DNA of 64,000 nucleotides, from contig OZ220464.1 of the NCBI GenBank assembly GCA_965115825.1, positions 1,221,306-1,285,305 on the forward strand. The letters run 5' to 3'. The DNA is from Dehalococcoidia bacterium. Its GTDB lineage: Bacteria; Chloroflexota; Dehalococcoidia; Lucifugimonadales; UBA3495. Each line of letters starts with the position of its first letter. Positions within the stretch are counted from its first letter, which is position 1. Positions 34 to 54,628 of the stretch are shown here, in pieces. Below the pieces are notes generated by a model. The model was not told the origin of the DNA and searched no databases. It saw only the letters and a program-made list of their open reading frames with translations. The position numbers were made by a program, and so were the translations under genes.

Positions 34-708
34 TCAGGGCAAGGCGGCGTTGAGTTCGGTAGCCAAGGCGTTGACGCGACCGGCTTGTGTGACGTTGAAG
101 ATTCCGGTGATGTCATCGCTGCGGTAGCCTACTAGGTCAGGCGGGACGGCGTTGGAGACAATGAAGAACGGGCGAGTACGGTTGTTACGGCGGTAATTTG
201 CGGCGTTGGCCTGCGCTTTTTTCCACGTGTCAGAACGCTCCAATCCAGGGCGGGCCAGAGCAGTAGCCGTTTGGTCGGGGTTTTGGACTTGGCGGGGCGA
301 GCCTTTGGTTTCAATGGCAATGGCGCTGGTGATTTCGATGTCGTGGGTGCGAGTATTCCCAGGAGTGGAGACAGCCGGCAGCTCGAATCTGGTGATTAGC
401 AAGTGGCGAACGGCGCTCTCGAAGGCGCTACCGACCACCGATGCGCGGCTTTGGAAAGTTGCAATTTCGAACACTTTAGCCGCTTCGCACATGGGGCATC
501 GCTGTGGCGCGTTGCCGAACTGCGCGGTGGCAGCGCCGTTGGCTATGCAGGCAAGACAGGCCCAAGCGGGGTAGCAGCCCATCTCATCTATGGCATCTTG
601 AAAGGAGGCGTCAAAGTAATGGCGCAACCTGTCGTTGGTCAGCGTTCGCTCACCAATGAACCGGCGATAGTTGGCAGCGGCGATGGCATCATAGCGAGCA
701 GGCGGCAT
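34..708 (-). CDS. putative type II restriction endonuclease (PD-(D/E)XK-like, with Cys-pair zinc-ribbon-like element)
   Basis: 224-aa ORF whose start overlaps the 3' end of the methylase ORF by 20 nt on the same strand. Two Cys pairs (CLAC, CPMC) are followed by an HDIEI...IETKG motif. The call rests on the motif plus R-M context; I do not recognise the family. Confidence 0.55.
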   Translation of the reverse strand: MPPARYDAIAAANYRRFIGERTLTNDRLRHYFDASFQDAIDEMGCYPAWACLACIANGAATAQFGNAPQRCPMCEAAKVFEIATFQSRASVVGSAFESAVRHLLITRFELPAVSTPGNTRTHDIEITSAIAIETKGSPRQVQNPDQTATALARPGLERSDTWKKAQANAANYRRNNRTRPFFIVSNAVPPDLVGYRSDDITGIFNVTQAGRVNALATELNAALP

Positions 709-1450
709 TGCGCACCTCCGCTATGACGCGGCCGGTTTGGTCGGTTCGGGTGAAGAGAGTGGGGGTTGACGACAGGCGGCGGTGGGCTAACTCACGGTAT
801 TCCCGGGAGGTTTCGTAGCCGACAAATCGGCGTCCGGCTTGGAGGGCAGCGATGGCGGTGGTACCGCTGCCCATGAAAGGGTCCAGCACTACCTCGCCGG
901 CGTAGGTGTAGAGCTCGATGCAGCGACGGGGGAGCTCCACCGGGAAGGGGGCAGGGTGTCCGATGCGGCGCGCCGATTCGGTGGGAAACTGCCAGACGCT
1001 GCGGGTCCAATCTAGGAAATCCTGGCGGGCAATGGTGGACTCGCGGCCAGCGACTTTGGGGCGACGGTAGGTGTCTTTGCAGAGCACCAGGATGTACTCA
1101 TGCACGTCGCGCAGGGTGGGATTGGCAGCGGATTGCCAGCTGCCCCAGGCGGTGGACGAGGCGGCGCTGGCAGCTTTATTCCATATGATTTCGCCGCGCA
1201 TCAGGAAGCCAATGCGGAGCAAGTCTTCGATAACGTAGCGGTGCAGCGGGAGGTAGGGGCGGCGGCCCAGGTTGGCGATATTGAAGCAGACCCGTCCGCC
1301 AGGCACCAGGACGCGGTGGACTTCGCGCATTACCCGGCGCAGGAAAGCCCGGTACTGCGGCAAGGTGAGGTCGTCGTCGTATTCTTTCCCCACGTTGTAG
1401 GGAGGCGACGTAACCATCAGGTGAACACTGCAATCGGGCAGCTCGGCCAT
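689..1450 (-). CDS. beta-class DNA amino-methyltransferase (N4-cytosine or N6-adenine)
   Basis: 253-aa ORF. TSPPYN (motif IV) lies near the N-terminus and DPFMGSGTT (motif I) near the C-terminus, which is the beta-class motif order. The ATG at 1450 may not be the true start, because the frame stays open about 100 codons upstream without a start codon. Confidence 0.85.
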   Translation of the reverse strand: MAELPDCSVHLMVTSPPYNVGKEYDDDLTLPQYRAFLRRVMREVHRVLVPGGRVCFNIANLGRRPYLPLHRYVIEDLLRIGFLMRGEIIWNKAASAASSTAWGSWQSAANPTLRDVHEYILVLCKDTYRRPKVAGRESTIARQDFLDWTRSVWQFPTESARRIGHPAPFPVELPRRCIELYTYAGEVVLDPFMGSGTTAIAALQAGRRFVGYETSREYRELAHRRLSSTPTLFTRTDQTGRVIAEVRNAACSL

Positions 1451-1627: not shown

Positions 1628-1656
1628 CCCTGCTTCGCTTCGCGCGTGGGGGGAGG
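1628..1656. repeat. 29-nt perfect direct repeat, copy 1
   Basis: CCCTGCTTCGCTTCGCGCGTGGGGGGAGG; an identical copy lies 61 nt downstream. Confidence 0.9.
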
Positions 1657-1688
1657 TCGCGCCGTCCGCGCTGCGCCAGGTCGGGCTC

Positions 1689-1717
1689 CCCTGCTTCGCT
1701 TCGCGCGTGGGGGGAGG
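1689..1717. repeat. 29-nt perfect direct repeat, copy 2
   Basis: Identical to 1628-1656. Both copies lie in the start-less open frame upstream of the methylase ATG. Confidence 0.9.
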
Positions 1718-1768
1718 GGGAATTCTGAAGCCAAAACGCGCGGCATTATCGCGCTGTACTTACGAGAG

Positions 1769-1794
1769 AGGCGATTTCGCTACTCGGATTCCAG
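1769..1794. repeat. 26-bp inverted repeat, left copy
   Basis: AGGCGATTTCGCTACTCGGATTCCAG; its exact reverse complement occurs at 3230-3255. Confidence 0.95.
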
Positions 1795-1977
1795 TGGGCC
1801 TTTATGTGGAAACGGCCGCTTCGGCTCCGGGTTGCGTAATTCGGCGTCTGGCTCAAAACGGCGTTGTTGATTGCGCCGTTTTTCTGTGATATACATATCC
1901 CGGACACGGGGAACGATTCGGCGTTTCCCGGTTTATTTTGTCGTTCCGGTAGCAAACCGGATGGGAAGGAGTTAGAG

Positions 1978-2766
1978 ATGATCGATTTTTTGAAGACGGT
2001 TCGTTGGTCGGCGCCGGTGGCGGCGCTGGTTGCCGCTATGCTGGCGGTCGGCGTGAGCATGGGGGGCGGGACGGTTGCGGCGCAAGAGTCCGAGGTGAAA
2101 CCGGGCAGCCCGCCGACGGAAGCGCCGGTGATATACCGGAGCCACACCATCCCCACCGGCCTGGTTATCTTCTGGAAGCCTAAGGCCGGAGCCGCTATCG
2201 GCGACGTTGTCGACGGGGTAACGGGCTACCAGTTCGATATGCGCGTCATCGGTCAGAGCAATTGGTTGGGGGATGAGAAGCATCGCCTTAAGCATTTGGT
2301 CCGGGTATATGCCCACCACTATGCGAACCATGACGGGCCTTACGAATATCGCGTCAGGGCTTTCAACAGCCACGGCGACGGGCCTTGGTCCGAGGTTTAC
2401 CGGCGTCCGAGCGAGGGGAGTGTTGCGCCGGCGCCGGTGGCGCCGGCAGACGGCGTCCGTAAGGGGCGTGGCGTGAGTCGCCTGAAGGTGGTTCCTGTCG
2501 GGGAAGGTACGGCTACCGTGTCTTGGAAAGAGCCAAAGGGAGCTGCTGGCCCTTGCGTTCCAGGCGCAACCCCCCAGTACCGTTACCGGTACTGGAGTGG
2601 CAGTATGCCCAGGGGAGCCGAGGCATCGGATACCCCTCGGAACTCGGTTACGCTGAGCGGGTTGGATCCGGGCGTTGAGTACACCGTGGTGGTGCGGAGT
2701 TATTCTCCCACCTGCGATTCCTGGTCGAAGCCCCGCAAGGTGTCCTGGGTCCAGTCCGGGGGTTAG
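1978..2766 (+). CDS. secreted or membrane-anchored protein with two fibronectin type III-like domains
   Basis: Frame of track ORF 1864-2766. The chosen ATG at 1978 has GGAAGGAG 6 nt upstream. N-terminal hydrophobic signal (WSAPVAALVAAMLAVGV). Two FN3-like modules end in YEYRVRAFNSHGDGPWS and GVEYTVVVRSYS. Confidence 0.7.
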   Translation: MIDFLKTVRWSAPVAALVAAMLAVGVSMGGGTVAAQESEVKPGSPPTEAPVIYRSHTIPTGLVIFWKPKAGAAIGDVVDGVTGYQFDMRVIGQSNWLGDEKHRLKHLVRVYAHHYANHDGPYEYRVRAFNSHGDGPWSEVYRRPSEGSVAPAPVAPADGVRKGRGVSRLKVVPVGEGTATVSWKEPKGAAGPCVPGATPQYRYRYWSGSMPRGAEASDTPRNSVTLSGLDPGVEYTVVVRSYSPTCDSWSKPRKVSWVQSGG

Positions 2767-2798
2767 GTTCGTGGCAACCTGAGGGTTGCTTTGCCGAG

Positions 2799-2838
2799 AG
2801 GAGCTCCAGCAATTACGCCGGGGCTCCTGCTTTATTTC
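2799..2838 (+). terminator. rho-independent terminator candidate after the FN3 gene
   Basis: AGGAGCTCC (2799-2807) pairs with GGGGCTCCT (2820-2828): a 9-bp stem with one G-U pair and a 12-nt loop, followed by GCTTTATTTC. Confidence 0.55.
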
Positions 2839-3229
2839 GGGGAGGCGCAGGCTATTGATATTTCCCCCTTTCCACGGCTCTTTGGCAGGTTGCTTTTTCG
2901 CTCCAGGGGCGGTATTTCTCGTTGCGGAACGATGTTCCACAACGAGGATGGAAACTCATTTTCCTGATGGAGTTTATCGGGAGTTGGGACGGTTGTCGGG
3001 CTGCGCGGTTTTCGTGCTGTGGGCCCTGCGGATGGCCTGTTTGAGTTCCATGATGGGACCTACGAAGGACGTTCCGGCATGGTCGTAGGTCCAGATGTCC
3101 CGGTGGTAGCGCTTGATGCTGCCGCTGGGTCGGTTGTCGATCGTTACGGCGGCTTCGTTGCGTTCGGTTCGGAGGTATGATATTCGGGGCGGCAGCGGCA
3201 ATTTTGTCTCCTTTTCTCCTACTGGCTCG

Positions 3230-3255
3230 CTGGAATCCGAGTAGCGAAATCGCCT
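3230..3255. repeat. 26-bp inverted repeat, right copy
   Basis: CTGGAATCCGAGTAGCGAAATCGCCT is the exact reverse complement of 1769-1794. Confidence 0.95.
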
Positions 3256-3378
3256 ATTACGAGATGGCAACCCCTCCCGATGGAAGCGATTTGTGGTATC
3301 TTGTGGGGCGTTGCGCCGGCGTGAAGGGCGAGTATTGGCGCCGGCTTTACTTTGCGATTGTTTTGAGGTGGTTCCCTG

Positions 3379-4173
3379 ATGGCTTCCTACACTGAGCGGA
3401 TGGTTTCCGTTCGCAACGGTATGTTCAACGTGCAGGTGGCGGAGGGCGGCTCGGGGGAGCCGTTGCTTTACCTGCATGGGGCGGGCGGTTATGTTGGCTG
3501 GCCGGACTATTTGGAGCGGCTGGCACAGGACTATCACGTTTACGCTCCAGCGCATCCGGGGGTTGGAAAGTCCACGGGGTTGAATCATCTGGACGACCTT
3601 TGGGACTTGGCACAGTTTTTTGAGGAGTTGCTGGACGCTTTGGGAATTGAAAGATGCCATCTCATCGGGCATTCTTACGGGGGGTTCTGCGCCGCTGAGC
3701 TGGCCGCCCACCGGCCTGAGCGGATTGCGCGGCTGGCGCTGGTGAACTCGCTGGGGCTGTGGCTGGAGGAGAAGCCGGTGGCGGACTTTTTTATTCTGAC
3801 GCCGGACGAGAGGCGGGAGATGATGTGGCATGACCCGGAGAGTGAAGGGGCGCACGCTTACGTGGCGCAACCGACCGACCCGGAAGCGCGGTTGGAATAT
3901 ACTCTTGACCGAATTCAGACGCTGCAATCGGTGGCAAAGTTCACCTGGCCGATACCGGAGCGGGGCCTGGCCAAGCGCGCCCACCGCATAACGATGCCGA
4001 CGTTGATAGTCTGGGGCGCCTCCGACCGGGTGATTCCGCCGGAATACGGCGAAGCGTTCCGGGAGCTGCTGCCCAACGCTACGCTGACGGTGATACCGGA
4101 GTGCGGCCATATTCCGCAGCTGGAACGGCCTGAGGCTTTCTTTGAAAGCGTACTCGGCTTTCTGCACGACTGA
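3379..4173 (+). CDS. alpha/beta hydrolase (meta-cleavage-product hydrolase-like)
   Basis: 264 aa with HGAGG oxyanion region, GHSYGG nucleophile elbow and C-terminal CGHIPQLE His motif. Confidence 0.85.
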   Translation: MASYTERMVSVRNGMFNVQVAEGGSGEPLLYLHGAGGYVGWPDYLERLAQDYHVYAPAHPGVGKSTGLNHLDDLWDLAQFFEELLDALGIERCHLIGHSYGGFCAAELAAHRPERIARLALVNSLGLWLEEKPVADFFILTPDERREMMWHDPESEGAHAYVAQPTDPEARLEYTLDRIQTLQSVAKFTWPIPERGLAKRAHRITMPTLIVWGASDRVIPPEYGEAFRELLPNATLTVIPECGHIPQLERPEAFFESVLGFLHD

Positions 4174-10465: not shown

Positions 10466-11272
10466 CTATTCCGCTGCGCCTACTTCTTCCCGCAGCCAGT
10501 CGTAGCCCTGGGCTTCCAGCTGTTCGGCGAGTTCGGGGCCGCCGCTACGGACGATGCGGCCATCCAGCAGCACGTGTACCCGGTCGGGGGTGATGTAGTT
10601 GAGGATGCGCTGGTAGTGAGTTACCACCACGGCGGCGTTGTCGGGCCGGCGCAGGCGGTTGACGCCGTCGGCGACGATGCGCAGGGCGTCGATGTCGAGG
10701 CCGGAGTCGGTTTCATCCAGGAGGGAGAGGGTGGGTTCGAGGAGGGCCATTTGGAGGACTTCGTTGCGTTTTTTCTCGCCGCCGGAGAAGCCTTCGTTGA
10801 CGGAGCGACGCACCAGTTCGGGGTCGATTTCGACTTCGGCGACTTTGGCGCGGAGCAGGCGGTCGAACTCGCGGGCGCCCATTTCCTCTTCGCCTTGGTG
10901 GGTGCGGCGGGCGTCCACGGCGGCCTTGAGGAATTGCCAGGCGCGGACGCCGGGCAGCTCTACGGGGTATTGGAAGGCGAGGAATACGCCTTCGCGGGCG
11001 CGGTCTTCGGGTTCCATGTCCAGCAAGTCCATGCCCCGGTACAGGGCCTGGCCGTTGGTGACGGCGTATTCGGGCCGGCCGGCGAGGGTATTGGCAAGGG
11101 TGCTTTTGCCGGAGCCGTTGGGGCCCATGATGGCGTGGACTTCGCCGGGATGGACAGTGAGGTTCACGCCGCGCAGGATTTCCTGCTCGTCGATGGATAC
11201 GTGGAGGTCGCGCACTTGGAGAATGGGCGCGGCGTTGTGGTTATCAGGGGCGGTCATGGCGGTTTGGGACAT
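10466..11272 (-). CDS. sufC: Fe-S cluster assembly ATPase SufC
   Basis: 268 aa with Walker A GPNGSGKST, signature FSGGEKKR, Walker B LLDETDSGLD. Confidence 0.95.
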   Translation of the reverse strand: MSQTAMTAPDNHNAAPILQVRDLHVSIDEQEILRGVNLTVHPGEVHAIMGPNGSGKSTLANTLAGRPEYAVTNGQALYRGMDLLDMEPEDRAREGVFLAFQYPVELPGVRAWQFLKAAVDARRTHQGEEEMGAREFDRLLRAKVAEVEIDPELVRRSVNEGFSGGEKKRNEVLQMALLEPTLSLLDETDSGLDIDALRIVADGVNRLRRPDNAAVVVTHYQRILNYITPDRVHVLLDGRIVRSGGPELAEQLEAQGYDWLREEVGAAE

Positions 11273-13499: not shown

Positions 13500-13541
13500 T
13501 TGTCAGAATCAGGATTTACTGGATTTTGGGATTTTCAGGAT
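13500..13541 (+). repeat. 42-nt GGATTT-periodic element, copy 1
   Basis: TTGTCAGAATCAGGATTTACTGGATTTTGGGATTTTCAGGAT. Confidence 0.9.
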
Positions 13542-13593
13542 GGGGTTGTGGGTGTGCGGCGCCGGAGAGGAGATGGGGGTTGGCGGTGGGGGA

Positions 13594-13635
13594 TTGTCAG
13601 AATCAGGATTTACCGGATTTTGGGATTTTCAGGAT
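13594..13635 (+). repeat. 42-nt GGATTT-periodic element, copy 2
   Basis: TTGTCAGAATCAGGATTTACCGGATTTTGGGATTTTCAGGAT. Confidence 0.9.
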
Positions 13636-13849
13636 TGTGGTGGGTTGTGGCGTTGGAGTGGGGGATGGTAGGGCTGTGGTTAATGGGCGGGGGACGGGAT
13701 GGCGGTGGGTTATACTGTTGGGGTTGGGATTTCCGGCGGATGGGCGGACTACGGATGGCGGGATGCGGATGGCTTGTTGGGATGGAGGGTTTCTGTGGAG
13801 TGGTATGGTGGCTTACGGGTGCGATGGCTTACATGTTGGAGGGTTTTTG

Positions 13850-14632
13850 ATGGCTTACAGCGGGTTGGATTTGACGGGTCGGAAGGCGCTGGTTACGGGC
13901 GCGGCGCGGGGGATTGGCGCGACGCTGGCGGTGGGTTTGGCACAGGCGGGGGCAGACGTGGCAGTGTGCGATTTGGCGTCTGATGAGTCGTGGGAGGGTC
14001 TGGCGGGGACGGTTTGGCGCATCAGGAATGAGGGTCGGATGGGGCTGGCGGTTGACCTGGATGTGGGGGAGGTGTCGGAGATTCGTCCGACGCTGCGACG
14101 GGTGTGGGAGGAGCTGGGCGGGCTGGATATTCTGGTGAATAACGCGGGCATCCGGCGGAGGGCGGCGGCGCTGGAGGTTACGGAGGAGGATTGGGATGCG
14201 GTGATGGATACGAATCTGAAGGGGGCGTTCTTCTGCGCGCAGGCGGCGGCGCGGCTGATGATTCCGCAGGGGTATGGGCGCATCATCAATGTGGCGTCGC
14301 AGCTGGCGCTAGTGGGCGCGACGGAGCGGGCGGCGTACTGCGCGAGCAAGGGCGGGCTGCTGAATTTGACGCGGGTTTTGGCGTTGGAATGGGCGCGGTA
14401 TGGCATTACGGTGAATGCTATCGGGCCGGGGCCGACGGCGACGCCGGGGACGCTGGAGGCGGAGACGCGAGGGGCTGCGGAGGTGGAGGCGGAGCTGCGG
14501 GTGAAGATGCCGCTGGGTCGCCGGATGGAGGCCGAGGAGCTGGTCGGGTCGGCGATATATCTGGCGAGCGGGTCGGCGGGGGCGACGACGGGGCAGATGC
14601 TGGTGGTGGATGGAGGATGGACGGCGATGTAA
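13850..14632 (+). CDS. SDR-family oxidoreductase
   Basis: C-terminal 260 aa of track ORF 13526-14632. The ATG at 13850 follows GGAGGG. Carries TGAARGIG, NNAG and the YCASK catalytic motif. The upstream part of the track ORF is a translation of the G-rich repeat region. Confidence 0.85.
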   Translation: MAYSGLDLTGRKALVTGAARGIGATLAVGLAQAGADVAVCDLASDESWEGLAGTVWRIRNEGRMGLAVDLDVGEVSEIRPTLRRVWEELGGLDILVNNAGIRRRAAALEVTEEDWDAVMDTNLKGAFFCAQAAARLMIPQGYGRIINVASQLALVGATERAAYCASKGGLLNLTRVLALEWARYGITVNAIGPGPTATPGTLEAETRGAAEVEAELRVKMPLGRRMEAEELVGSAIYLASGSAGATTGQMLVVDGGWTAM

Positions 14633-14635
14633 GGG

Positions 14636-14677
14636 TTGTCAGAAGCAGGATTTGCCGGATTTGGGGATTTTCGGGAT
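14636..14677 (+). repeat. 42-nt GGATTT-periodic element, copy 3
   Basis: TTGTCAGAAGCAGGATTTGCCGGATTTGGGGATTTTCGGGAT; starts 3 nt after the SDR stop codon. Confidence 0.9.
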
Positions 14678-14742
14678 GGGGGTTATGGCGCGGGGGTGGG
14701 TTGCGGTGTGGGCGGTGGAGTTGGTGGGTTAGGGGGTGGGGG

Positions 14743-14784
14743 TTGTCAGAAGCAGGATTTACCGGATTTGGGGATTTTCAGGAT
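14743..14784 (+). repeat. 42-nt GGATTT-periodic element, copy 4
   Basis: TTGTCAGAAGCAGGATTTACCGGATTTGGGGATTTTCAGGAT. Confidence 0.9.
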
Positions 14785-14897
14785 GGGGGTTGCGGGTTTT
14801 GGCGGGGGCGGCTGGGTGGGGTTTGGGGCGGCGGGCGGGAGTGGCTGATTTGTGTGATGTCTTATCACGGGCGCGGCGGCTGTGTGGGTTTTGGGTG

Positions 14898-14906
14898 TGA
14901 TAGAAT
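14898..14906 (+). promoter_or_regulatory. extended -10-like element upstream of the LRR locus
   Basis: TGATAGAAT (TGn + TAGAAT). Confidence 0.25.
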
Positions 14907-15092
14907 CGCGGCGGCCGGGCTCGGGGGCAGCAAAGTTAGGGCATTGCTTGGTGATTAGGCAAAGTTAGGCGTTGCTTCGTGATTAGGCACTGGATTACAT
15001 ACGATGAGCGTGATGGCCGGGGTGGCGGCGCTGGTCGGGGTAGTGGTGGTGATGGCCGGGGTTGAGGCCGGCTGCGGGGCGTTTCCGGGTGG

Positions 15093-16775
15093 TTGAGGAT
15101 TCTGCTGGTTGGGCTGCTTTTGCTGCTGTTGGCGGGGCTGGCAGCGTTTCTCCTGGCCGGGATAGGAGAGGAAAATGATGGGGAGGCTATGGCATCGGCT
15201 ACGCTGACGGTGGCGGATGTTGCGACGGCTACGGCCGGCGTGACGGAGACGCCGGGGGCTGTCGCGGTGTCTGACGGGTCGCAGACGCCGGGGGCATCTG
15301 GCGGGGCCGGAGGGTCGCAGACGCCGGTTGTTCCCGCATTGCCTTATCCGCCGGAAGCGTCGGGCACTCCGGCCGGGTCTGACCCGATGCTGACGCAGGG
15401 TACTCCGGCTGGGTCTGACCCGCCGGCGCCAGGTGTTCCTACGTTGCCGGCTACGCCGCAGATGCCGGGCATTACGATGGAGGTTGCGGGGGCTACGGCT
15501 ACGCCTACGTCTTCCACTCCGGCGAGCGCTGTTGGGGTGACGGCTGCGCCTACGGACGGGCCAACGCTGGGGAATACTGCGACGAGCGTGGCGCCGTTGC
15601 CGGTTATTGGGATAAGCGGGGCTAGCGCGACGCCTACTCCGACGGGTACAGGCATGCCTACGGCGACGCTGACGGGAACTCCGGCGGGGGTGTCAGCAGG
15701 GACGCCTACGGCTACCGCTACTGTATCGCCTACTCCGACGGCTAGCCCTACGCCTACTCCGACAAGGGTTATAGCGGGGACGCCGGCAGGCACTCCTACG
15801 CCGACAAGCACGCCGACGGCTACGGCTAGCGCTACTGCTTCACCTACGCCGACAGCTACGGGGACTCCGGTGGGGACGCCAGCAGATACGCCTACGCCGA
15901 CAGCTACGCCTACTGTGTCACCTACTCCTACCCGCACGGCCACCGTTACTGCTTCGCCTACTCCTACCCGCACGGCCATCGTTACTGCTTCGCCTACTCC
16001 TACTCGGACGGCTACACCTACCTCTTCGCCTACTCCGATTCGCCTACTCCGACAATCTCCGGCTGCGCCGATGACCGGCTCGTGCTGGTAGAGGTCTGGC
16101 TCGACACCAAGGGGTCACTATGGAGCGAAAGAAGAAAAGAGCATTGGCTGAGCGACAGGCCGTTGGACGATTGGAGAGGCGTTGAGGCTGACGAGGACGA
16201 TTGCGTCCTCGAGTTGTCCCTCCCGAATTGGGGGCTGGCGGGTAAAATACCGGCGAACTTGGGACGGCTCAGCAAGTTGGAAGTGCTAATCATGACCAAC
16301 AACTCACGTTTAGGAGGCGAGATACCGGAGGAGTTGGGTGCCCTGAGCAATTTGGAAGTGTTGAGGCTGTGGAATAACGATTTGGGAGGCGAGATACCGG
16401 CGAGTCTGGGGAGGCTCAGTAATTTGAAAGAGTTAAGCCTCCTGTCGATATGGATTGGAAGGTGGGATACCGGAGGCGCTGAGGAATCTCCGCAAGTTGG
16501 AAACGCTAAATCTCGGCGAGAATCTGCTATCGGGAGAGATACCGACGTGGCTGGGGGAACTCACGAACTTGCGGGTTTTGCGTCTCGACAACGGGAGGGG
16601 CGCCAATGATAACCAATTCAGCGGCCCGATACCGCCGGAGCTGGGCAATCTGGTGAAGTTGACCAACTGGAGGATCGCAGGCAATACGGGGTTGGGAGGG
16701 TGCATACCGGCTACCTGGGGGAGGACAGGGTATAATGACTTTGATGAGGCGGGGCTGGAGTACTGTACGGACTAG
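15093..16775 (+). pseudogene. membrane-anchored Thr/Pro-rich, plant-type leucine-rich-repeat protein, interrupted by two frameshifts
   Basis: Three track ORFs (15093-16091, 16082-16609, 16455-16775; frames 0, 2, 0) read as one protein: a TM segment, about 250 aa of TP-rich linker, an LRR N-cap ([18 protein letters not shown]...WRGVEADEDDCVLELSLPNWGLAGKIP), then LxxLxLxxNxLxGxIP repeats. The frame breaks lie near 16037 (within a TCGCCTACTCCGA duplication) and near 16454. Confidence 0.6.
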
Positions 16776-16782
16776 CGGCGGG

Positions 16783-16824
16783 TTGTCAGAATCAGGATTT
16801 ACCGGATTTTAGGATTTTCAGGAT
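16783..16824 (+). repeat. 42-nt GGATTT-periodic element, copy 5
   Basis: TTGTCAGAATCAGGATTTACCGGATTTTAGGATTTTCAGGAT; starts 7 nt after the LRR stop codon. Confidence 0.9.
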
Positions 16825-16864
16825 TGGGATGGTGGCGGATGGGGGTGGGATGGGGTAGGTGGGG

Positions 16865-16906
16865 TTGTCAGAATCAGGATTTACGGGATTTGGGGATTTT
16901 CAGGAT
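16865..16906 (+). repeat. 42-nt GGATTT-periodic element, copy 6
   Basis: TTGTCAGAATCAGGATTTACGGGATTTGGGGATTTTCAGGAT. Confidence 0.9.
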
Positions 16907-17257
16907 TGGGTTGTGCTTGTGCTTGTGAGGGTGGGGTGTGGCTCTGGAGGGGGATGTGGGTTGCGGGCTCTGGGGGTATGGCGATGGGGGTGGTGTGGAT
17001 GGCTGGGGGTGGTCTGAGTGGCTGGGGGTTGTCTGAATTGGGATTTGGGGGGTTGGGTGTCTGGGGGTTGGGAAACCGGAGGGGGACGGGGTTTGAGTGG
17101 GAAAGGGGTGATACGGGGCTTAGGATCGTGCAAAAATAGACAACTTCCGCGACGGGTAGGAATCAAGTGACGAATTCCGCCGCCTATGGTTGCGCCACGT
17201 AAATCGTGTAGACTGTCGCCAAAGAACAGCTTTCAATCGAAATCAAAAGGAGAAACC

Positions 17258-17744: not shown

Positions 17745-18290
17745 CTACGCTACCCGCAGCATCCCGTTTAGAGCAGCCTTCGGTCCACGCCGTGTCATCC
17801 GCGCCAGCGCCATGGCGACGAACATAACCACCGCCAACAGGAAATGCAGGCTTACCCTTGCCTCGCCCCGGCAGGTGTGGTTCTCAACCCACCCGCTTTC
17901 AAACCACCAACTGAAGAACCGCTCTACTGCCCAGCGCTTCGGATAAATACGATTCCAGTCTGGCGATGCACGGCTGATGCGCCCGCCCAAAGTGTAGGGA
18001 TCATCGTCAAAGGACTCCCATACCTCATCGTCACAAACCGAGTACCCTTTGAACGGCTCCCGCCGGCGATGGCAGCCGCCTGCGGGGCAACGGAACCCAT
18101 GTAACCCAGCCGACAAATCGGTGCCTATGAACTTCATTGCCTTTCCGCCCAGGCAAACCGGCTCGCCATTCAGAGTATGGATGTTTGACTTGGAACGATT
18201 GCGCCGGGCGATGCGTGGTATGACTGGCGCCGCGCCCAAATCGTGGATTGCTTTAACGTTCTCCCGACCATCGTAGCCTTTATCAGCCAA
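17745..18290 (-). mobile_element. IS4/IS5-type DDE transposase, C-terminal fragment (IS remnant)
   Basis: LADKGYD (second D region) and KRWAVERFFSWW (E region) are present. The N-terminal catalytic region is absent, and there is no room for it before the STAS gene. Local GC is lower than the flanks. Confidence 0.7.
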
Positions 18291-18465: not shown

Positions 18466-18804
18466 ATGTCAATTGAAGTGAGCAGGGATAACGGGGCTCT
18501 GGTTATCCAGACGGAGGAGCGGGTGGACAGCGCGAATGCGCAAGCGTTTTATCAGGAGCTGGAGTCTGCCATTGGATCGGATGACCGGGCGGTGGTGGTG
18601 GATATGGAGCGGCTGACGTATATCAGCAGCGCGGGGCTGCGGGTGATATTGCAGACGGCCCGGAAGTTACAGCAGCAACAGGCGAAGTTTGCCATTTGCT
18701 CGCTGACCGGGACGGTGCGGGAGGTGTTTGAAATCAGCGGGTTTGACCGGGTGATTGAGATTCATGCGACACAGGAGGACGCGGTTGCGGCTGTGAACGG
18801 GTAG
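18466..18804 (+). CDS. STAS-domain anti-sigma-factor antagonist (RsbV/SpoIIAA-like)
   Basis: 112 aa with LTYISSAGLRVIL carrying the phosphorylatable Ser context. Confidence 0.9.
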   Translation: MSIEVSRDNGALVIQTEERVDSANAQAFYQELESAIGSDDRAVVVDMERLTYISSAGLRVILQTARKLQQQQAKFAICSLTGTVREVFEISGFDRVIEIHATQEDAVAAVNG

Positions 18805-19503
18805 CGGCGACAGGCGTCGTTGGAATGCCGACGTTGCGGGTTGCGCACCGGCGGAATAGTTGGCCGCTTGCACCTCAACGGTACACGATGTCCGATGCTG
18901 TGCTGCGTAGCAATTACCAGGCAAGGTGCGTCAAGCCGATGATTGCCACGCCGTTTTGCAAATGCCTCATAGTATGCGAAAGTTGCGTACGATGGGGCAG
19001 TTGGACAGCGTGGGATAAATGAGTAGGAGGCAATCATGGCTGACGCAGCAGTAGGATACCGGATACTGGTAGTTCACGATGAGCCGGACTGAGGCGTTTG
19101 AAATCGGCGGGTTTGACCGGGTGATTGAGATTCATTGAGACACAGGAGGACGCGGTTGCGGCTGTGAACGGGTAGCGGCGACAGGCGTCGTTGGAATGCC
19201 GACGTTGCGGGTTGCGCACCGGCGGAATAGTTGGCCGCTTGCAAAACGCTCTTTTCGCCGCTTGCACCTCAACGGTACACGATGTCCGATGCGCTGCTGT
19301 GTAGCAATAATCGGCTTGACGCGCCTTGCCCGATGATTGTCACGCTGTTTTGCAAGCGCCTCTATAGTGTGGGAAAGTTGCACATCGTGGGAAAGTTGCG
19401 TACCATTGGGACAGTGGCACAACGCGGGATAAATGAGTAGGAGGCAATGATGGCTGACGCAGCAGTAGGATACCGGATACTGGTAGTTGACGATGAGCCG
19501 GAC
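18721..19503 (+). repeat. diverged tandem segmental duplication (units about 18721-19089 and 19090-19503)
   Basis: The STAS 3' end, the intergenic region and the first 18 codons of the response regulator occur twice. Unit 1 ends in a truncated start, MADAAVGYRILVVHDEPD-stop (19036-19092). Unit 2 begins with a STAS 3' remnant carrying a premature TGA. Confidence 0.85.
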
Positions 19504-20610
19504 GTTGAGCCGCTGGTGCTGCAAAGGATGCGGCGGAGCATACGGTCGGGTCAGTATCAGTTCGTGTTTGCGCAAAACGGGGTGGAGGCGTTGCAGAAGC
19601 TGGAGCAGGACACGGGCATTGACATGGTGCTGTCGGACATCAATATGCCGCAGATGGACGGGCTGTCGCTGTTGGAGCGGATTCCGGAAGTGGCGCCGGA
19701 TACGCGGTCGGTAATCATATCGGCGTATGGGGACATGAAGAACATAAGGGCGGCGATGAATCGGGGAGCGTTTGACTTTGTGACGAAGCCGCTGGATTTT
19801 GAGGACTTGCGGGTGACGATTGACCGGACGCTGAAGAATTTGTCGGCCTGGCGGGAGGCGGAGTCTTCGCGGATGAGGCTGGCGGCGATTGAGAATGAGC
19901 TGGACGTGGCGAGCAAGATGCAGCAGAGTATCTTGCCGACGGGGTTTCCGACAGCGGAGCAGTACGAGGTTTTCGGGAGCATGACGCCGGCGCGGGAGGT
20001 TGGAGGGGATTTCTATGACATTTTGCAGTTGGAGAATGGGAAAATTGGGCTGGCGATTGCAGACGTTTCGGGGAAAGGGGTGCCGGCGGCGCTGTTTATG
20101 ATGGCCAGCCGAACGCTGCTGAAGGGTTCTGCTATCGGGCTGAATGACCCGGGGAGGGCGCTGAAAGAGGTGAATGACCTGCTGTATGAAGACAACGAAG
20201 CGATGATGTTCGTGACGGTGTTTTACGCGGTGTATGATCCGGAGACGCGGGAGCTGACGTATGCCAACGGCGGGCACAATATGCCGATAGTGGTTCACGC
20301 GGACGGGAGCAGCACGGTAACGCCGGGCACGAACGGGGTGGCGCTGGGCATAATGCCGAATGGGGAGTACGAACAGCACACGATTACCTGCGCGTCGGGG
20401 GACACGGTGGTTTTGTACACGGACGGGGTGACGGAGGCGATTAACGCGGAGGAGGAGGAGTTTGGGATGGAACGGCTGCGGGGGATATTCGCGGCGGCGC
20501 CTGGGGATTGTCGGAGCGCGGTGGGAGCGATTTTTGAGGCGGTGGCGGAGTTTGCGGGGGATGCGCCGCAGTTTGACGACATAACCTGTCTAGCGCTGCG
20601 GGTGAAGTGA
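19447..20610 (+). CDS. response regulator receiver fused to PP2C/SpoIIE phosphatase (RsbU-like)
   Basis: 387 aa with receiver motifs (VVDDEPD, DINMPQMDG, TKP), then GGDFYD and DVSGKG phosphatase motifs. Confidence 0.9.
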   Translation: MMADAAVGYRILVVDDEPDVEPLVLQRMRRSIRSGQYQFVFAQNGVEALQKLEQDTGIDMVLSDINMPQMDGLSLLERIPEVAPDTRSVIISAYGDMKNIRAAMNRGAFDFVTKPLDFEDLRVTIDRTLKNLSAWREAESSRMRLAAIENELDVASKMQQSILPTGFPTAEQYEVFGSMTPAREVGGDFYDILQLENGKIGLAIADVSGKGVPAALFMMASRTLLKGSAIGLNDPGRALKEVNDLLYEDNEAMMFVTVFYAVYDPETRELTYANGGHNMPIVVHADGSSTVTPGTNGVALGIMPNGEYEQHTITCASGDTVVLYTDGVTEAINAEEEEFGMERLRGIFAAAPGDCRSAVGAIFEAVAEFAGDAPQFDDITCLALRVK

Positions 20611-29576: not shown

Positions 29577-30947
29577 ATGGCCGAGCGCAACTTTGAAAAT
29601 CGGACGCTGTACCACGGGGAGAACCTGGATTTCCTGCGCGGTATGAACAGCGAAACCGTGAACCTGATTGCTACCGACCCGCCGTTCAACAAGAACCGGG
29701 ATTTTCACGCCACGCCGGACAGCCTGGCCACCGGCGCCGCCTTCCATGACCGCTGGCGCTGGGATGAGGACATTCACGATGAATGGATGATTGCCATACA
29801 GCGCGATGAGCCGGAGGTCTGGCAGGTCATTACTACCGCCAAGACGGTGTGGGGCGACGATATGGGCGCGTTCCTATGCTATTTGGCTGTACGGCTGTTG
29901 GAGATGCACCGTATCCTGACCGACGATGGCAGCCTGTACCTGCACATAGACCACACGGCCCACGCCTGGGCGAAATGTTTGCTGGACGCCATCTTTGGCC
30001 GGCGCAACTTCCGCAACGAAATCGTCTGGTGCTACACAGGTCCCGGGTCTCCAGGAATGCGTCAGTTCAACCGCAAGCACGATACTTTGCTATGGTATGC
30101 GAAAAGCGACAAGTGGACGTTCAACGGGGACAACGTGCGTATCCCGCATAGAAAATTAAACACAAACCGCGCTGGTCGTGTTATTGCAGATGCTATGACC
30201 CCAGAATTGAGAGAAAAGTACTTGGAGCGTGGGAAAATCCCAGAAACTTGGTGGCCGGACTTTACTCCGCCTGGCAGATTAAAGAGAGAGCGCACGGGCT
30301 ACCCTACCCAAAAGCCACTTGCTCTCTACGAGCGCATCATTAAGGCCAGCAGCAACTCCAGCGATATGGTGCTGGATCCATTTTGCGGCTGCGCCACTAC
30401 GCCAATCGCCGCCGAGCGTCTGGGTCGGCAGTGGGTGGGTATGGACATTTGGGACGGCGCGATAGGCCAAGTACTGGCCCGGTTGGAGAACGAAGGGCTG
30501 TTGCAGTCGGGGCGCCGGCGGCGGGGGCAGCAGCGGTTGGCAACCGCCGATGTCCACTATGAAACTACCCCACCCAAACGCACTGACGACGGCGAACCCG
30601 CCACCCTCGCATTGCGGACGCCCACCGGCCGAGCGCGCTATCCTGCGCCCCGGACGCATCACGGGCGATTGCTGGCCGACATTGGGCCGTTCTGCCAGGG
30701 TTGCGGCGCGGACTACGGCTTTGACACGCGGGTGCTGGAAGTTGACCACATCAACCCGCGTTCCCAGGGTGGCACGGACGCCTACGAAAACCTGACGCTG
30801 CTATGCCCGCCGTGCAACAAGGGGAAGCGCGACCGCTACACGCTGATAGGTTTGCAGCAGGAAAACCGGAAAGACGGGCATATGAAGAACGAAAACAACT
30901 TGCGGATGGGTCGGGCGCGCGGGCGCACTACCCGGCGGCGGCGATAG
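29577..30947 (+). CDS. beta-class DNA amino-methyltransferase fused to a C-terminal HNH endonuclease domain
   Basis: 456 aa. DPPFN (motif IV) then DPFCGCATT (motif I). The C-terminus reads CQGCG...EVDHINPRSQGG...NLTLLCPPCNKGKRD, an intact HNH with two CxxC pairs. Confidence 0.85.
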   Translation: MAERNFENRTLYHGENLDFLRGMNSETVNLIATDPPFNKNRDFHATPDSLATGAAFHDRWRWDEDIHDEWMIAIQRDEPEVWQVITTAKTVWGDDMGAFLCYLAVRLLEMHRILTDDGSLYLHIDHTAHAWAKCLLDAIFGRRNFRNEIVWCYTGPGSPGMRQFNRKHDTLLWYAKSDKWTFNGDNVRIPHRKLNTNRAGRVIADAMTPELREKYLERGKIPETWWPDFTPPGRLKRERTGYPTQKPLALYERIIKASSNSSDMVLDPFCGCATTPIAAERLGRQWVGMDIWDGAIGQVLARLENEGLLQSGRRRRGQQRLATADVHYETTPPKRTDDGEPATLALRTPTGRARYPAPRTHHGRLLADIGPFCQGCGADYGFDTRVLEVDHINPRSQGGTDAYENLTLLCPPCNKGKRDRYTLIGLQQENRKDGHMKNENNLRMGRARGRTTRRRR

Positions 30948-30962
30948 AGTGGGAGGTGCAAG

Positions 30963-31583
30963 ATGAATTTGACGCTCGACGACGTTGTGAATGCGGAACA
31001 CTGGGCAACGGCTATGTATCAGCCGGAGGAAGGCGAGATACGAAATACATGCATAGCTTTTTTGGAAGGTTGCGGCGTACAAGATGCGGCGACGGCAGTG
31101 ATAACGCCGTTCGAGAGCCCGTGGGCTTGGGTGGCAACACAACAAGGAAACAAGAGGTTCTTGACTGCGTTCGAGATGCAGTCAATGGGAATGCCGGAGC
31201 CGACGGTAACGGTGTGGGACTATCTGGGGCTGGTGGAAGGTGTCTCGCTGATAGAGCCTTTGAACGAATGTTCTTTGTGGACGAGCATACACGTCAACCT
31301 ATTGGAAATAAAGGGCGCGTTCTGCCACGGCTGTGGGACAGATTACCGTTTTGACGAACGGGTGCTGGAAGTTGAGCCAATCAAACCGCGTTCACAAGTT
31401 GGCCCAGATGACTTCTACGAAAGCCTGGAGGTACTCTATGAAGCACTGACGCTACTGTGTCCGCCGTGCAACAGGGTAAAGCGACACCGCGACATCTCGC
31501 TGGCAGAGTTGCAAGAAGCAAACCGGGCTGACGTAGCTTCGCTGAGGGGCAATGGCTATGCCCCAACAGGACGGTGGCAATGA
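30963..31583 (+). CDS. hypothetical protein with a degenerate (DH to EP) HNH-like zinc module, paralogous to the C-terminus of the upstream fusion
   Basis: 206 aa with GGGAGG 7 nt upstream. CHGCG...EVEPIKPRSQVG...ALTLLCPPCNRVKRHRD. A 17-nt stretch is identical to the upstream gene (31359-31375 vs 30729-30745). Confidence 0.6.
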   Translation: MNLTLDDVVNAEHWATAMYQPEEGEIRNTCIAFLEGCGVQDAATAVITPFESPWAWVATQQGNKRFLTAFEMQSMGMPEPTVTVWDYLGLVEGVSLIEPLNECSLWTSIHVNLLEIKGAFCHGCGTDYRFDERVLEVEPIKPRSQVGPDDFYESLEVLYEALTLLCPPCNRVKRHRDISLAELQEANRADVASLRGNGYAPTGRWQ

Positions 31584-53768: not shown

Positions 53769-54560
53769 CTAGGCGTTCTCTCGCAGCCGGCGCAGTTCTT
53801 CCCGCAGCCGTTCGTTTTCCATCTCGACGGCTAGTCGGGCTACTTCGGCGGCGTCTCGCTGCCGCTCGGCTATTGCCGCCTGTTCCTCGGCGGCCCGGCG
53901 GGCGTGCCATACTTCGCGCCAGCCTTCATCGTAGGCGCCGCCGGCCGGGTCGTACAGCAGAGGCCAGCCGTCATCCCAACACAGGCTCAACCCCAGCACA
54001 GGGCTGTATCCTTTCAGTATGCCGTCAGGCTCCGTTGTCAATTCCACCGGCCGGTACACGCCGTTGGTCAGCAGCTCCCCGGCCAGCGGCGCGCCGTGGT
54101 TCGCGCCCCCGGTAGGGTCAAATCGCCAGTACTCCGCTATGCCTATGGCGGCGTAAATCTGCGGCTTGCGGTTGACATCCACCGCCGCAGTGCTTGCCGA
54201 AGCCACTTCCAGCGCAAAGTCCGGCGGTTTGCCTACTTCCCAGGGCAGGTACAGCTTGCGCGGACGGATGGCCGCTGCATCCACTCCGAAAGCCAGGTAA
54301 ATATCCGGCGACACCCGCACGTTCAAGTTGCTTGGGTCGTAGCAGATGTAGGTCTCATTGTCCAGAAACACGTCAGGACGCTGATTGAAGTCCGTGAAGC
54401 GGGCCCGGAAAATGCCGAGCAGTTCCGCTATTTCCAGGTTTTGGTCCATAGCGTCCTCGGTGCGGCGCTTCTCGTCGGGGTTGAACTCCAGGCTGGCGTA
54501 GTCGATTTCGCCTTGCCGACGATAGGGCAGCATCTTGAACGCGGGTTTGGCAGTAGTCAT
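53769..54560 (-). CDS. Uma2-family endonuclease with C-terminal coiled-coil tail, tandem copy 1
   Basis: Internal ATG 54560 (GGAGG upstream) gives MTTAKPAFKML... Carries SPDIYLAF...PPDFALEVAS...IAEYWRFDP. The tail is RAAEEQAAIAERQRDAAEVARLAVEMENERLREELRRLR. Confidence 0.85.
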   Translation of the reverse strand: MTTAKPAFKMLPYRRQGEIDYASLEFNPDEKRRTEDAMDQNLEIAELLGIFRARFTDFNQRPDVFLDNETYICYDPSNLNVRVSPDIYLAFGVDAAAIRPRKLYLPWEVGKPPDFALEVASASTAAVDVNRKPQIYAAIGIAEYWRFDPTGGANHGAPLAGELLTNGVYRPVELTTEPDGILKGYSPVLGLSLCWDDGWPLLYDPAGGAYDEGWREVWHARRAAEEQAAIAERQRDAAEVARLAVEMENERLREELRRLRENA

Positions 54561-54628
54561 TTCGGGCCTCCGGATAAGCGGCGCGATACGCTGTAATCGC
54601 CTGTCTCCGTAAGAGACCTGATGGCGGG

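What the first reader, a model, noticed from the sequence alone, without database searches (positions are those of the whole stretch)
1760..3264. Perfect 26-bp inverted repeat bounding a 1.5-kb segment that carries a secreted FN3 protein gene
Seen in sequence:
- AGGCGATTTCGCTACTCGGATTCCAG (1769-1794) recurs as its exact reverse complement at 3230-3255.
- TTACGAGA flanks both copies on the outside in direct orientation (1760-1767 and 3257-3264).
- The enclosed segment holds the signal-peptide FN3 gene (1978-2766) and its terminator hairpin (2799-2838).
- It also holds about 390 nt with no convincing gene. There, a start-less but protein-like minus-strand frame runs 2974-3180.

Established knowledge: perfect 15-30-bp inverted repeats flanking promoters or surface-protein genes are the signature of recombinase-driven invertons. 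Paired inverted repeats also mark MITE/IS termini.

Inference: this is either an invertible or mobilisable cassette controlling a surface protein, or two copies of a dispersed regulatory repeat. No recombinase gene is present in this window.
Basis: partly seen in the sequence, partly recalled or inferred. Interest (0 to 1): 0.55.

Follow-up and report, generated by a model that had tools for sequence, protein, structure and literature searches.

The report
Transposon-like cassette carrying a secreted-protein gene
A 1.5-kb piece of DNA in an uncultivated Chloroflexota (Dehalococcoidia-like) genome has the end repeats and duplicated insertion site of a transposon but carries no transposase, only a fast-evolving secreted protein gene and a tiny gene of unknown function, so it is most likely a hitch-hiking gene cassette rather than an on/off inversion switch.

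Summary
The 26-mer at 1769-1794 recurs exactly inverted at 3230-3255, with none expected by chance, and extends to 44 nt at 84%. An 8-bp direct repeat, TTACGAGA, sits one base outside each arm.

Terminal inverted repeats plus a target-site duplication, two cargo genes and no transposase fit a mobile insertion cassette (MIC), about 0.55. Its cognate insertion sequence (IS) is unknown.

The supposedly start-less frame is a real 75-aa gene (2974-3201, minus strand) from a small uncharacterised protein family found in mobile or phage-like DNA.

The only relative carrying the locus (L002) has both arms and both flanks identical and in the same orientation. Yet the interior (1834-3101) is about 7% diverged against about 0.6% outside.

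The 27-mer is not a generic repeat. Among 185,579 species-representative genomes the 23-nt core scan hit one other, and L001 there holds the exact 27-mer as a solo copy plus a degenerate one. Metagenome and viral scans found none. That solo copy lies near a large serine recombinase, which is unexplained and keeps a site-specific-recombination rival alive.

An inverton is disfavoured. Both genes read inward with their own hairpins, two terminator-like hairpins block entry from outside, and no recombinase lies nearby.

Mobility itself is unproven: no empty site, second full copy or matching transposase was found.

The parts
1760..1767 (.). Left copy of the 8-bp direct repeat TTACGAGA (putative target-site duplication)
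   Evidence: Read directly. Identical in L002.
1768..1812 (+). Left terminal inverted repeat: tip G, then the perfect 26-mer (1769-1794), then an imperfect extension to 1812
   Evidence: The 27-mer including the tip G is identical at L001:1927-1953.
1855..1887 (+). Terminator-like hairpin AAAACGGCG...CGCCGUUUUU inside the left end
   Evidence: fold of 1850-1945, z -3.0. It would stop transcription entering from the left flank.
1907..1940 (+). Second hairpin plus U-run in the FN3 leader
   Evidence: Terminator-like site. Folded.
1978..2766 (+). Cargo gene 1: 262-aa secreted protein with two fibronectin type III domains
   Evidence: Pfam fn3 E 1.3e-12. Only one relative among 5.8 billion proteins, at 87% identity. 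dN/dS 0.59, dS 0.12-0.14 against L002.
2800..2838 (+). Intrinsic-terminator-like hairpin plus UUUAUUU after the FN3 gene
   Evidence: -25.9 kcal/mol, z -2.3.
2916..2948 (.). Strong quasi-palindromic hairpin between the two convergent genes. Its core (2921-2945) is reverse-complemented in L002
   Evidence: z -4.2 on the plus strand, -5.7 on the minus strand. Flip shown and by the minus-strand match.
2974..3201 (-). Cargo gene 2 (ORF75): 75-aa protein with a TTG start, member of an uncharacterised small-protein family
   Evidence: AlphaFold model with mean pLDDT 83, five strands plus a helix. No Pfam or PHROGs family and no PDB fold match. Frameshifted at about residue 50 in L002.
3207..3211 (-). 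GGAGA ribosome-binding site 5 nt before the TTG of ORF75
   Evidence: Read directly.
3212..3256 (-). Right terminal inverted repeat: the tip on this strand is T (A3256 on the plus strand), then the perfect 26-mer (3230-3255), then an imperfect extension to 3212
   Evidence: Identical in L002.
3257..3264 (.). Right copy of the 8-bp direct repeat TTACGAGA
   Evidence: Read directly. Identical in L002.
1834..3101 (.). Divergence island: 87 substitutions and 2 indels against L002 (about 7%), lying wholly inside the arms
   Evidence: Background is about 0.6%.

Best explanation
The segment 1768-3256 (1,489 bp) is a non-autonomous, transposon-derived cassette of the kind called a mobile insertion cassette (MIC).

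How it most likely works:
1. Two IS-type terminal inverted repeats enclose passenger genes in place of a transposase gene.
2. A DDE-type transposase supplied in trans by a related, still unidentified insertion sequence bound the two ends.
3. It inserted the cassette into the intergenic region between a restriction-modification methyltransferase gene and an alpha/beta-hydrolase gene.
4. Repair of the staggered cut duplicated the 8-bp target TTACGAGA.

The cargo is a self-contained secreted 2xFN3 protein gene with its own leader and terminator, plus a convergent 75-aa gene of a family otherwise seen in phage-like and IS-rich DNA.

The cassette now looks fixed at this site in its lineage. Its interior is a hot spot of allelic exchange or older variation, with relaxed or diversifying selection on the secreted protein.

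Shown: the repeats, the duplication, the cargo, the absence of a transposase, the rarity of the end sequence, and the interior divergence. Inferred: transposition as the origin, a trans-acting transposase, and recombination as the source of the divergence.
For: - Ends: a perfect 26-bp terminal inverted repeat, extending to 44 bp at 84%, with none expected by chance.
- Target duplication: an 8-bp direct repeat immediately outside both ends at a symmetric 1-nt offset, chance about 1e-4. Terminal repeats plus direct target repeats are the accepted criterion that an element arrived by transposition. Duplication length is family-specific; the IS6 family, for example, makes 8 bp (PMC7986276, PMC9330008).
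- MIC definition: passenger genes flanked by IS-type repeats, no transposase of their own, target duplications as proof of transposition, and solo repeats also occurring (PMC4337579).
- No transposase: neither ORF inside has a transposase or recombinase domain.
- Accessory cargo:
  - FN3 has a single relative among 5.8 billion proteins.
  - ORF75 relatives sit in a phage-like module and in IS630/IS66/IS5-rich islands.
  - The segment is absent upstream of the orthologous hydrolase in seven loci from related genomes.
- End shared across genomes: the terminal 27-mer, including the tip G, is identical in an otherwise unrelated Dehalococcoidia chromosome, with a second degenerate copy, in a region carrying a recombinase. 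An end sequence shared without any shared interior is what cassette-type elements and solo repeats look like.
- Insulating hairpin: a terminator-like hairpin lies just inside the left end. By my own knowledge, many insertion sequences carry such hairpins.
- Interior divergence: about 7% against about 0.6% in the flanks, with a different transition:transversion ratio (55:32 against 65:9). The tract ends 40 and 128 nt inside the arms. This fits homologous exchange limited to cassette sequence.
Against: - No transposase gene with these ends was found anywhere.
- Copy number is very low.
  - There is only one full copy, in two near-identical genomes.
  - The 23-nt core scan hit a single stretch among 185,579 species-representative genomes.
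  - There were none in JGI metagenomes, IMG/VR or plasmids.
- No empty site could be found. The region upstream of the hydrolase is a synteny breakpoint and is unalignable in relatives.
- In L001 the exact end lies about 715 nt from a large serine recombinase gene. The second copy there is in direct, not inverted, orientation.
- The only transposase relic in the window, a DDE_Tnp_1 remnant at 17745-18290, has no matching ends.
- The interior divergence can also be explained without mobility, by balancing or diversifying selection on a surface protein allele.
Confidence: 0.55

Rival explanations
1. Cassette moved by site-specific recombination. On this view the 26/27-mer is the binding arm of a recombinase site. 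One candidate is the large serine recombinase family seen beside it in L001. Another is a tyrosine recombinase, with TTACGAGA as the crossover core. The segment would then be an integrated or exchangeable cassette, comparable to integron cassettes or pdif modules.
For: - An exact 27-mer in L001 lies about 715 nt beyond the 3' end of a 610-aa ORF with Resolvase, Recombinase and Zn_ribbon_recom domains.
- A degenerate second copy lies 1.24 kb away in direct orientation, enclosing about two small ORFs. That reads like recombinase plus repeated sites.
- No DDE transposase with such ends exists in the data.
- For a tyrosine recombinase, the layout 'core direct repeat, then inverted binding arms' (B-O-C' ... 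C-O-B') would give the observed direct repeat outside the inverted repeat (my knowledge of att-site architecture).
Against: - Serine recombinases leave only a 2-bp repeated crossover, not 8 bp (established knowledge).
- The host-side flanks next to TTACGAGA show no similarity to the arms, as B and B' half-sites should (read).
- The 26-mer has no significant dyad or hairpin (z -0.3 to -0.9).
- No homologue of the L001 recombinase is in the 64-kb window (tblastn). No recombinase is called in L002's 10 kb to the left.
- Divergence between the window and L002 does not start at the arm edges, as site-specific cassette swapping would predict.
Confidence: 0.17
2. Inverton. On this view a trans-acting invertase flips 1795-3229 between the two 26-bp repeats to phase-vary expression of the secreted FN3 protein or of ORF75.
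For: - The perfect repeat lies within the 10-40-nt range that defines invertons (PMC11892184).
- The cargo is a secreted or surface-type protein.
- Each gene starts close to an arm and reads inward: 183 nt for FN3 and 28 nt for ORF75. An outside promoter could in principle drive one or the other.
- A serine recombinase lies next to the same site in L001.
Against: - The 8-bp direct repeat outside the arms is unexplained by inversion.
- Two terminator-like hairpins with U-runs lie between the left arm and the FN3 start. FN3 also has its own terminator, so orientation should not matter.
- No recombinase lies within +/-5 kb, where invertases usually sit.
- The orientation is identical in both available genomes.
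- The L001 enzyme is a large integrase-type serine recombinase, not a Hin-type invertase.
Confidence: 0.1
3. Duplicated promoter or operator. On this view the 26-mer is a cis-regulatory site placed upstream of both convergent genes, and the flanking 8-mer match is incidental.
For: - In both window copies the motif has the same orientation relative to the downstream gene.
- All four known copies are in or next to intergenic DNA.
Against: - The direct repeat has a chance of about 1e-4.
- 26/26 identity plus an 18-nt imperfect extension is more than operators need.
- There is no dyad symmetry or hairpin, no sigma-70-like promoter hit and no Rfam family.
- In L001 the motif orientation relative to the nearest gene start is the opposite.
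- ORF75 relatives elsewhere lack the motif.
Confidence: 0.06

Closest known systems
Mobile insertion cassettes (MIC231 of Bacillus cereus; TnXax1-derived MICs carrying TALE and effector genes in Xanthomonas)
   Same: - Passenger genes flanked by IS-type terminal inverted repeats.
- No transposase of their own.
- A target-site duplication at the ends.
- Cargo is often a secreted or host-interaction protein.
- Solo repeats occur elsewhere (PMC4337579).
   Different: - The cognate IS or transposon is unknown.
- The duplication is 8 bp. TnXax1 MICs make 5 bp, and by my recollection IS231 MICs make 10-12 bp.
- Only one full copy is known.
- The host is an uncultivated Chloroflexota lineage.
MITEs (miniature inverted-repeat transposable elements)
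   Same: Non-autonomous, with terminal inverted repeats and a target-site duplication, and mobilised in trans.
   Different: MITEs are short (typically under about 300-500 bp) and non-coding. This element is 1,489 bp with two genes.
Invertons and Hin/Gin/Piv-type invertible segments
   Same: A DNA segment bounded by 10-40-bp inverted repeats near a surface-protein gene (PMC11892184).
   Different: - The flanking direct repeat.
- Complete, insulated transcription units inside the segment.
- No nearby invertase.
- No evidence of a second orientation.
IS families that make 8-bp duplications (IS6 is documented in PMC7986276; IS256, ISL3, IS66 and IS1595 from my own knowledge of ISfinder)
   Same: An 8-bp target duplication and terminal repeats of tens of bp. 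The overall length of about 1.5 kb is close to IS256 or ISL3.
   Different: - No transposase gene.
- The tips GAGGCG and TAGGCG do not match the IS6 GG...cTGTt...caaa pattern.
- Family assignment was not possible with these tools.
Elements integrated by a large serine recombinase, and integron or pdif-type cassettes
   Same: A short conserved site shared between unrelated genomes, lying next to a large serine recombinase gene in L001, with gene-sized segments between the sites.
   Different: - An 8-bp rather than a 2-bp repeated core.
- No dyad or hairpin in the site.
- No recombinase at the window locus.

Membership tests
Mobile insertion cassette (MIC) | Terminal inverted repeats at both ends | tested here: met
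   26/26 perfect, and 44 nt at 84%.
Mobile insertion cassette (MIC) | Direct target-site duplication flanking the ends | tested here: met
   TTACGAGA at 1760-1767 and 3257-3264, conserved in L002.
Mobile insertion cassette (MIC) | Carries passenger gene(s) and no transposase | tested here: met
   An FN3 gene and ORF75. Neither has a transposase or recombinase domain.
Mobile insertion cassette (MIC) | The repeats are those of a known or co-resident IS whose transposase can act in trans | tested here: inconclusive
   - No transposase-bearing element with these ends was found in the window, in 13 related loci, in GTDB representatives or in metagenomes.
Mobile insertion cassette (MIC) | Evidence of mobility: further copies, or occupied versus empty sites | tested here: inconclusive
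   - The same site is occupied in both genomes that have the locus.
- Relatives lack the element, but the region is unalignable.
- There is one solo end plus one degenerate end in L001.
Inverton | Segment flanked by 10-40-nt inverted repeats | tested here: met
   Definition from PMC11892184.
Inverton | Both orientations exist in a population | not testable with these tools
   No reads are available. The two assemblies have the same orientation, which is weak evidence.
Inverton | Invertase gene nearby (typically within +/-5 kb) | tested here: not met
   Neighbours are a methyltransferase, a putative restriction enzyme, a hydrolase, ferritin, DinB and DUF418. There is no homologue of the L001 recombinase in 64 kb.
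Inverton | Flipping changes the connection between a promoter and a gene | tested here: not met
   Both genes lie fully inside and read inward. Two terminator-like hairpins lie between the left arm and FN3, and FN3 has its own terminator. This is an inference from structure, not an expression test.
MITE | Short (a few hundred bp at most) and non-coding | tested here: not met
   1,489 bp with two ORFs.
Autonomous insertion sequence | Encodes its own transposase | tested here: not met
Element integrated by a large serine recombinase (attL/attR) | A 2-bp crossover repeat, with quasi-palindromic att half-sites on both the host and the element side | tested here: not met
   The direct repeat is 8 bp. 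The host-side flanks are unlike the arms. The site has no dyad or hairpin.
Diversity-generating retroelement target (considered for the FN3 variability) | A template repeat near a reverse transcriptase, and adenine-specific substitutions confined to a variable region | tested here: not met
   - No repeat of any FN3 segment appeared among the 20 largest of 58 direct-repeat families listed for the 64-kb window.
- All substitution types occur, and they extend into non-coding DNA on both sides.

The most novel reading that the evidence does not exclude
The 27-mer may be the recognition site of a so far undescribed cassette system in Dehalococcoidia, driven by a large serine recombinase. Gene-sized cassettes encoding secreted or accessory proteins would be bounded by this site and excised, inverted or exchanged between genomes. 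The window would hold one such cassette, with no recombinase gene found in the window. L001 would show the recombinase with two sites in direct orientation.
Probability: 0.1. Interest if true: 0.65.

Novelty: new member of a known kind. Interest (0 to 1): 0.3.

Why it matters
If the reading is right, this shows that transposase-less cassettes ferry secreted-protein genes in uncultivated Chloroflexota (Dehalococcoidia-like) genomes, a group whose mobile elements are poorly catalogued. It also supplies an exact 27-bp end sequence with which to find the missing transposase, or recombinase, in complete genomes.

The cargo behaves as a local hot spot of variation: about 10 times the background divergence, and dN/dS of 0.6 against 0.1. 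That pattern is expected for a protein exposed to phages or other cells.

None of this would overturn current views. It is a tidy example rather than a new principle. The unexplained link to a large serine recombinase in a second genome is the only part with real potential to surprise.

Tried and rejected
- Generic REP-like repeat: rejected. There are only two copies in 64 kb. A 23-nt core scan of 185,579 species-representative genomes hit one stretch. There were none in JGI metagenomes or IMG/VR.
- Structured RNA or riboswitch: no Rfam family.
- attC-like hairpin or dyad-symmetric site: the 26-mer folds no better than shuffles. The compensatory dyad I saw by eye is not supported.
- DGR-driven hypervariation of FN3: no template repeat, no A-bias, and the changes spill into non-coding DNA.
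- The window's DDE_Tnp_1 ORF as partner transposase: it is a C-terminal remnant with no matching ends.
- Empty-site search through seven hydrolase-orthologue loci: homology stops about 40 nt before the hydrolase start, and the left neighbours differ (pyrG, DctM or another gene). No site can be reconstructed.
- Function of ORF75: no Pfam or PHROGs family, no PDB fold match (best E 0.2), and nothing in phage or plasmid records or on viral contigs.
- Loci encoding ORF75 relatives: no 26-mer-like motif.
- Element DNA against plasmids: no match.
- CRISPR reading of the 29-nt repeat with its 32-nt spacer at 1628-1717: no further copies, no hairpin and no cas genes seen. A deletion between direct repeats explains the L002 difference equally well.
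Full report
WHAT IS THERE

The 26-mer AGGCGATTTCGCTACTCGGATTCCAG lies at 1769-1794. Its exact reverse complement lies at 3230-3255. No other match exists in the 64-kb window even with 3 mismatches, and none is expected in shuffles.

The arms continue imperfectly to 44 nt at 84% identity (1769-1812 and 3212-3255). This pair heads the list of inverted repeats (I1) in the whole-window scan, and only one other pair is as long. In the 18 nt beyond the core, 11 positions match, read.

One base outside each arm lies TTACGAGA, at 1760-1767 and 3257-3264, in direct orientation. The intervening bases are G1768 and A3256. An 8/8 direct match at a symmetric offset has a chance of roughly 1e-4 after allowing a few offsets. 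The unit from tip to tip is 1768-3256, or 1,489 bp.

CONTENT OF THE SEGMENT

1. Leader. There are two terminator-like hairpins, each followed by a U-run, at 1855-1887 and 1907-1940.
2. FN3 gene, 1978-2766 (+). It encodes 262 aa with two fn3 matches. The N-terminus reads as a Sec signal peptide by inspection.
3. FN3 terminator. A hairpin plus UUUAUUU lies at about 2800-2838.
4. Central hairpin. A very stable quasi-palindrome lies at 2916-2948 (z -4.2 on the plus strand, -5.7 on the minus strand).
5. ORF75, 2974-3201 (-).
It has an in-frame TTG at 3201, 5 nt after a GGAGA.
   - The 75-aa product was called as a gene in the source genome.
   - An exhaustive HMMER search found about ten small proteins of 65-76 aa at 38-50% identity over nearly the full length.
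   - These share an invariant core, G-x-P-x-G ... WTYDH-x-G-x-S-x-VG.
   - It folds confidently (mean pLDDT 83) as five strands plus a C-terminal helix.
   - It matches no Pfam or PHROGs family and no solved fold.
   - Its relatives lie in a phage-like replication module (L010) and in islands crowded with IS630, IS66 and IS5 transposase genes (L011-L013).

Neither cargo protein has a transposase or recombinase domain.

SURROUNDINGS

To the left is a restriction-modification pair: a 224-aa ORF and an N6_N4 methyltransferase at 689-1450 (-). To the right are an alpha/beta hydrolase (3379-4173), ferritin, DinB, DUF418 and the Suf/NifU genes.

No homologue of the L001 recombinase is in the window. 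A DDE_Tnp_1 remnant exists at 17745-18290, but it has no ends resembling the 26-mer.

COMPARATIVE EVIDENCE

Relative with the same locus (L002).
- The FN3 protein has exactly one relative among 5.8 billion proteins, at 87% identity.
- Its locus, L002, is syntenic with the window. Over the shared 12.7 kb it is about 99% identical.
- Both arms and both TTACGAGA copies are identical in L002, and in the same orientation.
- Background divergence is about 0.6%. In eight flanking genes dS is about 0.01-0.05 and dN/dS about 0.1. Transitions to transversions are 65:9.
- Between 1834 and 3101 there are 87 substitutions, about 7%, with transitions to transversions 55:32.
- FN3 has dS 0.12-0.14, dN 0.07 and dN/dS 0.59.
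- The divergent tract stops 40 nt inside the left arm and 128 nt inside the right arm. It is mosaic, with 141-nt and 81-nt stretches carrying no change.
- Six of the clustered differences come from one event. The 25-nt core of the central hairpin is reverse-complemented in L002.
- In L002, ORF75 is frameshifted at about residue 50 and the methyltransferase is split. These may be real decay or indel errors in the assembly.

More distant relatives (L003-L009).
- These are seven loci from related genomes whose hydrolase is 79-87% identical.
- They keep the right-hand synteny but lack FN3, ORF75 and the R-M genes.
- Their left neighbours differ, and nothing aligns further than about 40 nt before the hydrolase start.
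- The segment is therefore lineage-specific, but no empty site can be reconstructed.

The end sequence elsewhere (L001).
- A 23-nt core was scanned against one genome for each of 185,579 species. It hit a single stretch, in a Dehalococcoidia MAG chromosome (L001).
- Degenerate scans of JGI metagenomes and IMG/VR gave nothing.
- In L001 the identity covers 27 nt, including the tip G, and nothing else is similar.
- A degenerate copy (7 mismatches in 26) lies 1.24 kb upstream in direct orientation.
- No inverted partner or matching flank exists within the 8 kb held.
- About 715 nt from the exact copy ends a 610-aa ORF with Resolvase, Recombinase and Zn_ribbon_recom domains, a large serine recombinase.
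- L001 could not be extended.

INTERPRETATION

A perfect terminal inverted repeat bracketed by a direct repeat is the hallmark of cut-and-repair insertion by a transposase. Reviews use exactly this pair of features to decide how an element reached its position. They also note that duplication length is family-specific (PMC7986276, PMC9330008).

An element with such ends, passenger genes and no transposase is by definition a mobile insertion cassette. Solo repeats are also known for this class (PMC4337579). This is the best-supported reading, at about 0.55.

Four further observations fit it:
- both cargo genes are orphan or accessory;
- a terminator-like hairpin sits just inside the left end;
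- ORF75 occupies the position that a transposase start would have, 28 nt inside an arm;
- the interior divergence has tract ends confined to cassette sequence, which fits homologous exchange with another copy or allele of the cassette. Balancing or diversifying selection on a secreted protein explains that equally well without mobility.

RIVALS

- Inverton (about 0.1).
  - It fails to explain the direct repeat.
  - It would have no obvious regulatory effect. Both genes are complete, read inward and are insulated.
  - There is no nearby invertase.
  - It cannot be excluded without reads.
- Site-specific-recombination cassette (about 0.17). The L001 recombinase keeps it alive.
  - Serine recombinases duplicate only 2 bp.
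  - The host flanks do not resemble the arms.
  - The site has no dyad or hairpin.
  - Divergence does not begin at the arm edges.
- Purely regulatory repeat (about 0.06). It is contradicted by the duplication and by the absence of promoter, dyad or RNA-family signals.

LIMITS

- Mobility is inferred, not shown.
- There is no second full copy, no empty site and no cognate transposase.
- The IS family cannot be named. From my own knowledge of ISfinder, 8-bp duplications occur in IS6, IS256, ISL3, IS66 and IS1595. The tips here do not match the IS6 pattern quoted.
- I did not annotate every ORF of the window.
- The taxonomic placement (Chloroflexota, probably Dehalococcoidia) rests on source names of hydrolase homologues and on the L001 record title.

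VERDICT

Interest is modest at 0.3. Two points remain unexplained: the interior divergence island, and the same 27-mer beside a large serine recombinase in another genome.

Noticed in passing
window 1628-1717 (L002 9712-9740): A perfect 29-nt direct repeat, CCCTGCTTCGCTTCGCGCGTGGGGGGAGG, occurs twice around a unique 32-nt spacer, just left of the cassette. L002 has a single repeat, so the difference is exactly one repeat-plus-spacer unit of 61 nt. The geometry is CRISPR-like. There are no other copies, no hairpin and no cas genes, and a deletion between direct repeats explains it equally well.
   Followed up: partly
window 2921-2945 (L002 about 10943-10967): The core of a strong quasi-palindromic hairpin is reverse-complemented between the window and L002. 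This is a 25-nt 'hairpin flip', typical of template switching. It accounts for six clustered apparent substitutions.
   Followed up: yes
window 17745-18290 (-): A C-terminal remnant of a DDE_Tnp_1 (IS4/IS5-type) transposase, without recognisable terminal repeats.
   Followed up: partly
window 13500-16957: Six copies of a repeat of about 40 nt, TTGTCAGAATCAGGATTTAC(C/T)GGATTTTGGGATTTTCAGGAT, each followed by G-rich sequence. They are scattered between a short-chain dehydrogenase gene and a Thr/Pro-repeat plus LRR protein region.
   Followed up: no
window 53782-55432: A tandem duplication with an 860-nt period (73-95% identity) containing Uma2-family putative endonuclease ORFs. It lies next to a DEAD/Helicase_C/MZB (MrfA-like) helicase gene at 51491-53752.
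   Followed up: no
window 18765-19503: A duplicated block of about 400 nt (93-99% identity) with a 45-nt inverted repeat at 18905-18949 and 19301-19345. It lies upstream of and overlaps the start of a response-regulator/SpoIIE phosphatase gene at 19447-20610.
   Followed up: no
window 29577-31583: A DNA methyltransferase-HNH fusion gene (29577-30947) is followed by a decayed second copy of its HNH portion (76-78% identity at 31318-31494), inside a 206-aa ORF with no Pfam hit.
   Followed up: no
L001 662-688, 1927-1953, 2668-4500: In an unrelated Dehalococcoidia chromosome there is an exact copy and a degenerate copy of the cassette's 27-nt end, in direct orientation 1.24 kb apart. They lie next to a large serine recombinase gene, and no inverted partner exists within 8 kb.
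   Followed up: partly
L002 8871-9534 and about 11075-11079: In L002 the R-M methyltransferase is split into two ORFs and ORF75 is frameshifted, while the window copies are intact. This is either gene decay or indel errors in that assembly.
   Followed up: partly
proteins P0124, P0130 (not in the window): The ORF75 core motif (...Y-x-R-x-x-WT-Y/F...) recurs 5-9 times in large, highly repetitive proteins of 627-805 aa from unknown sources.
   Followed up: no
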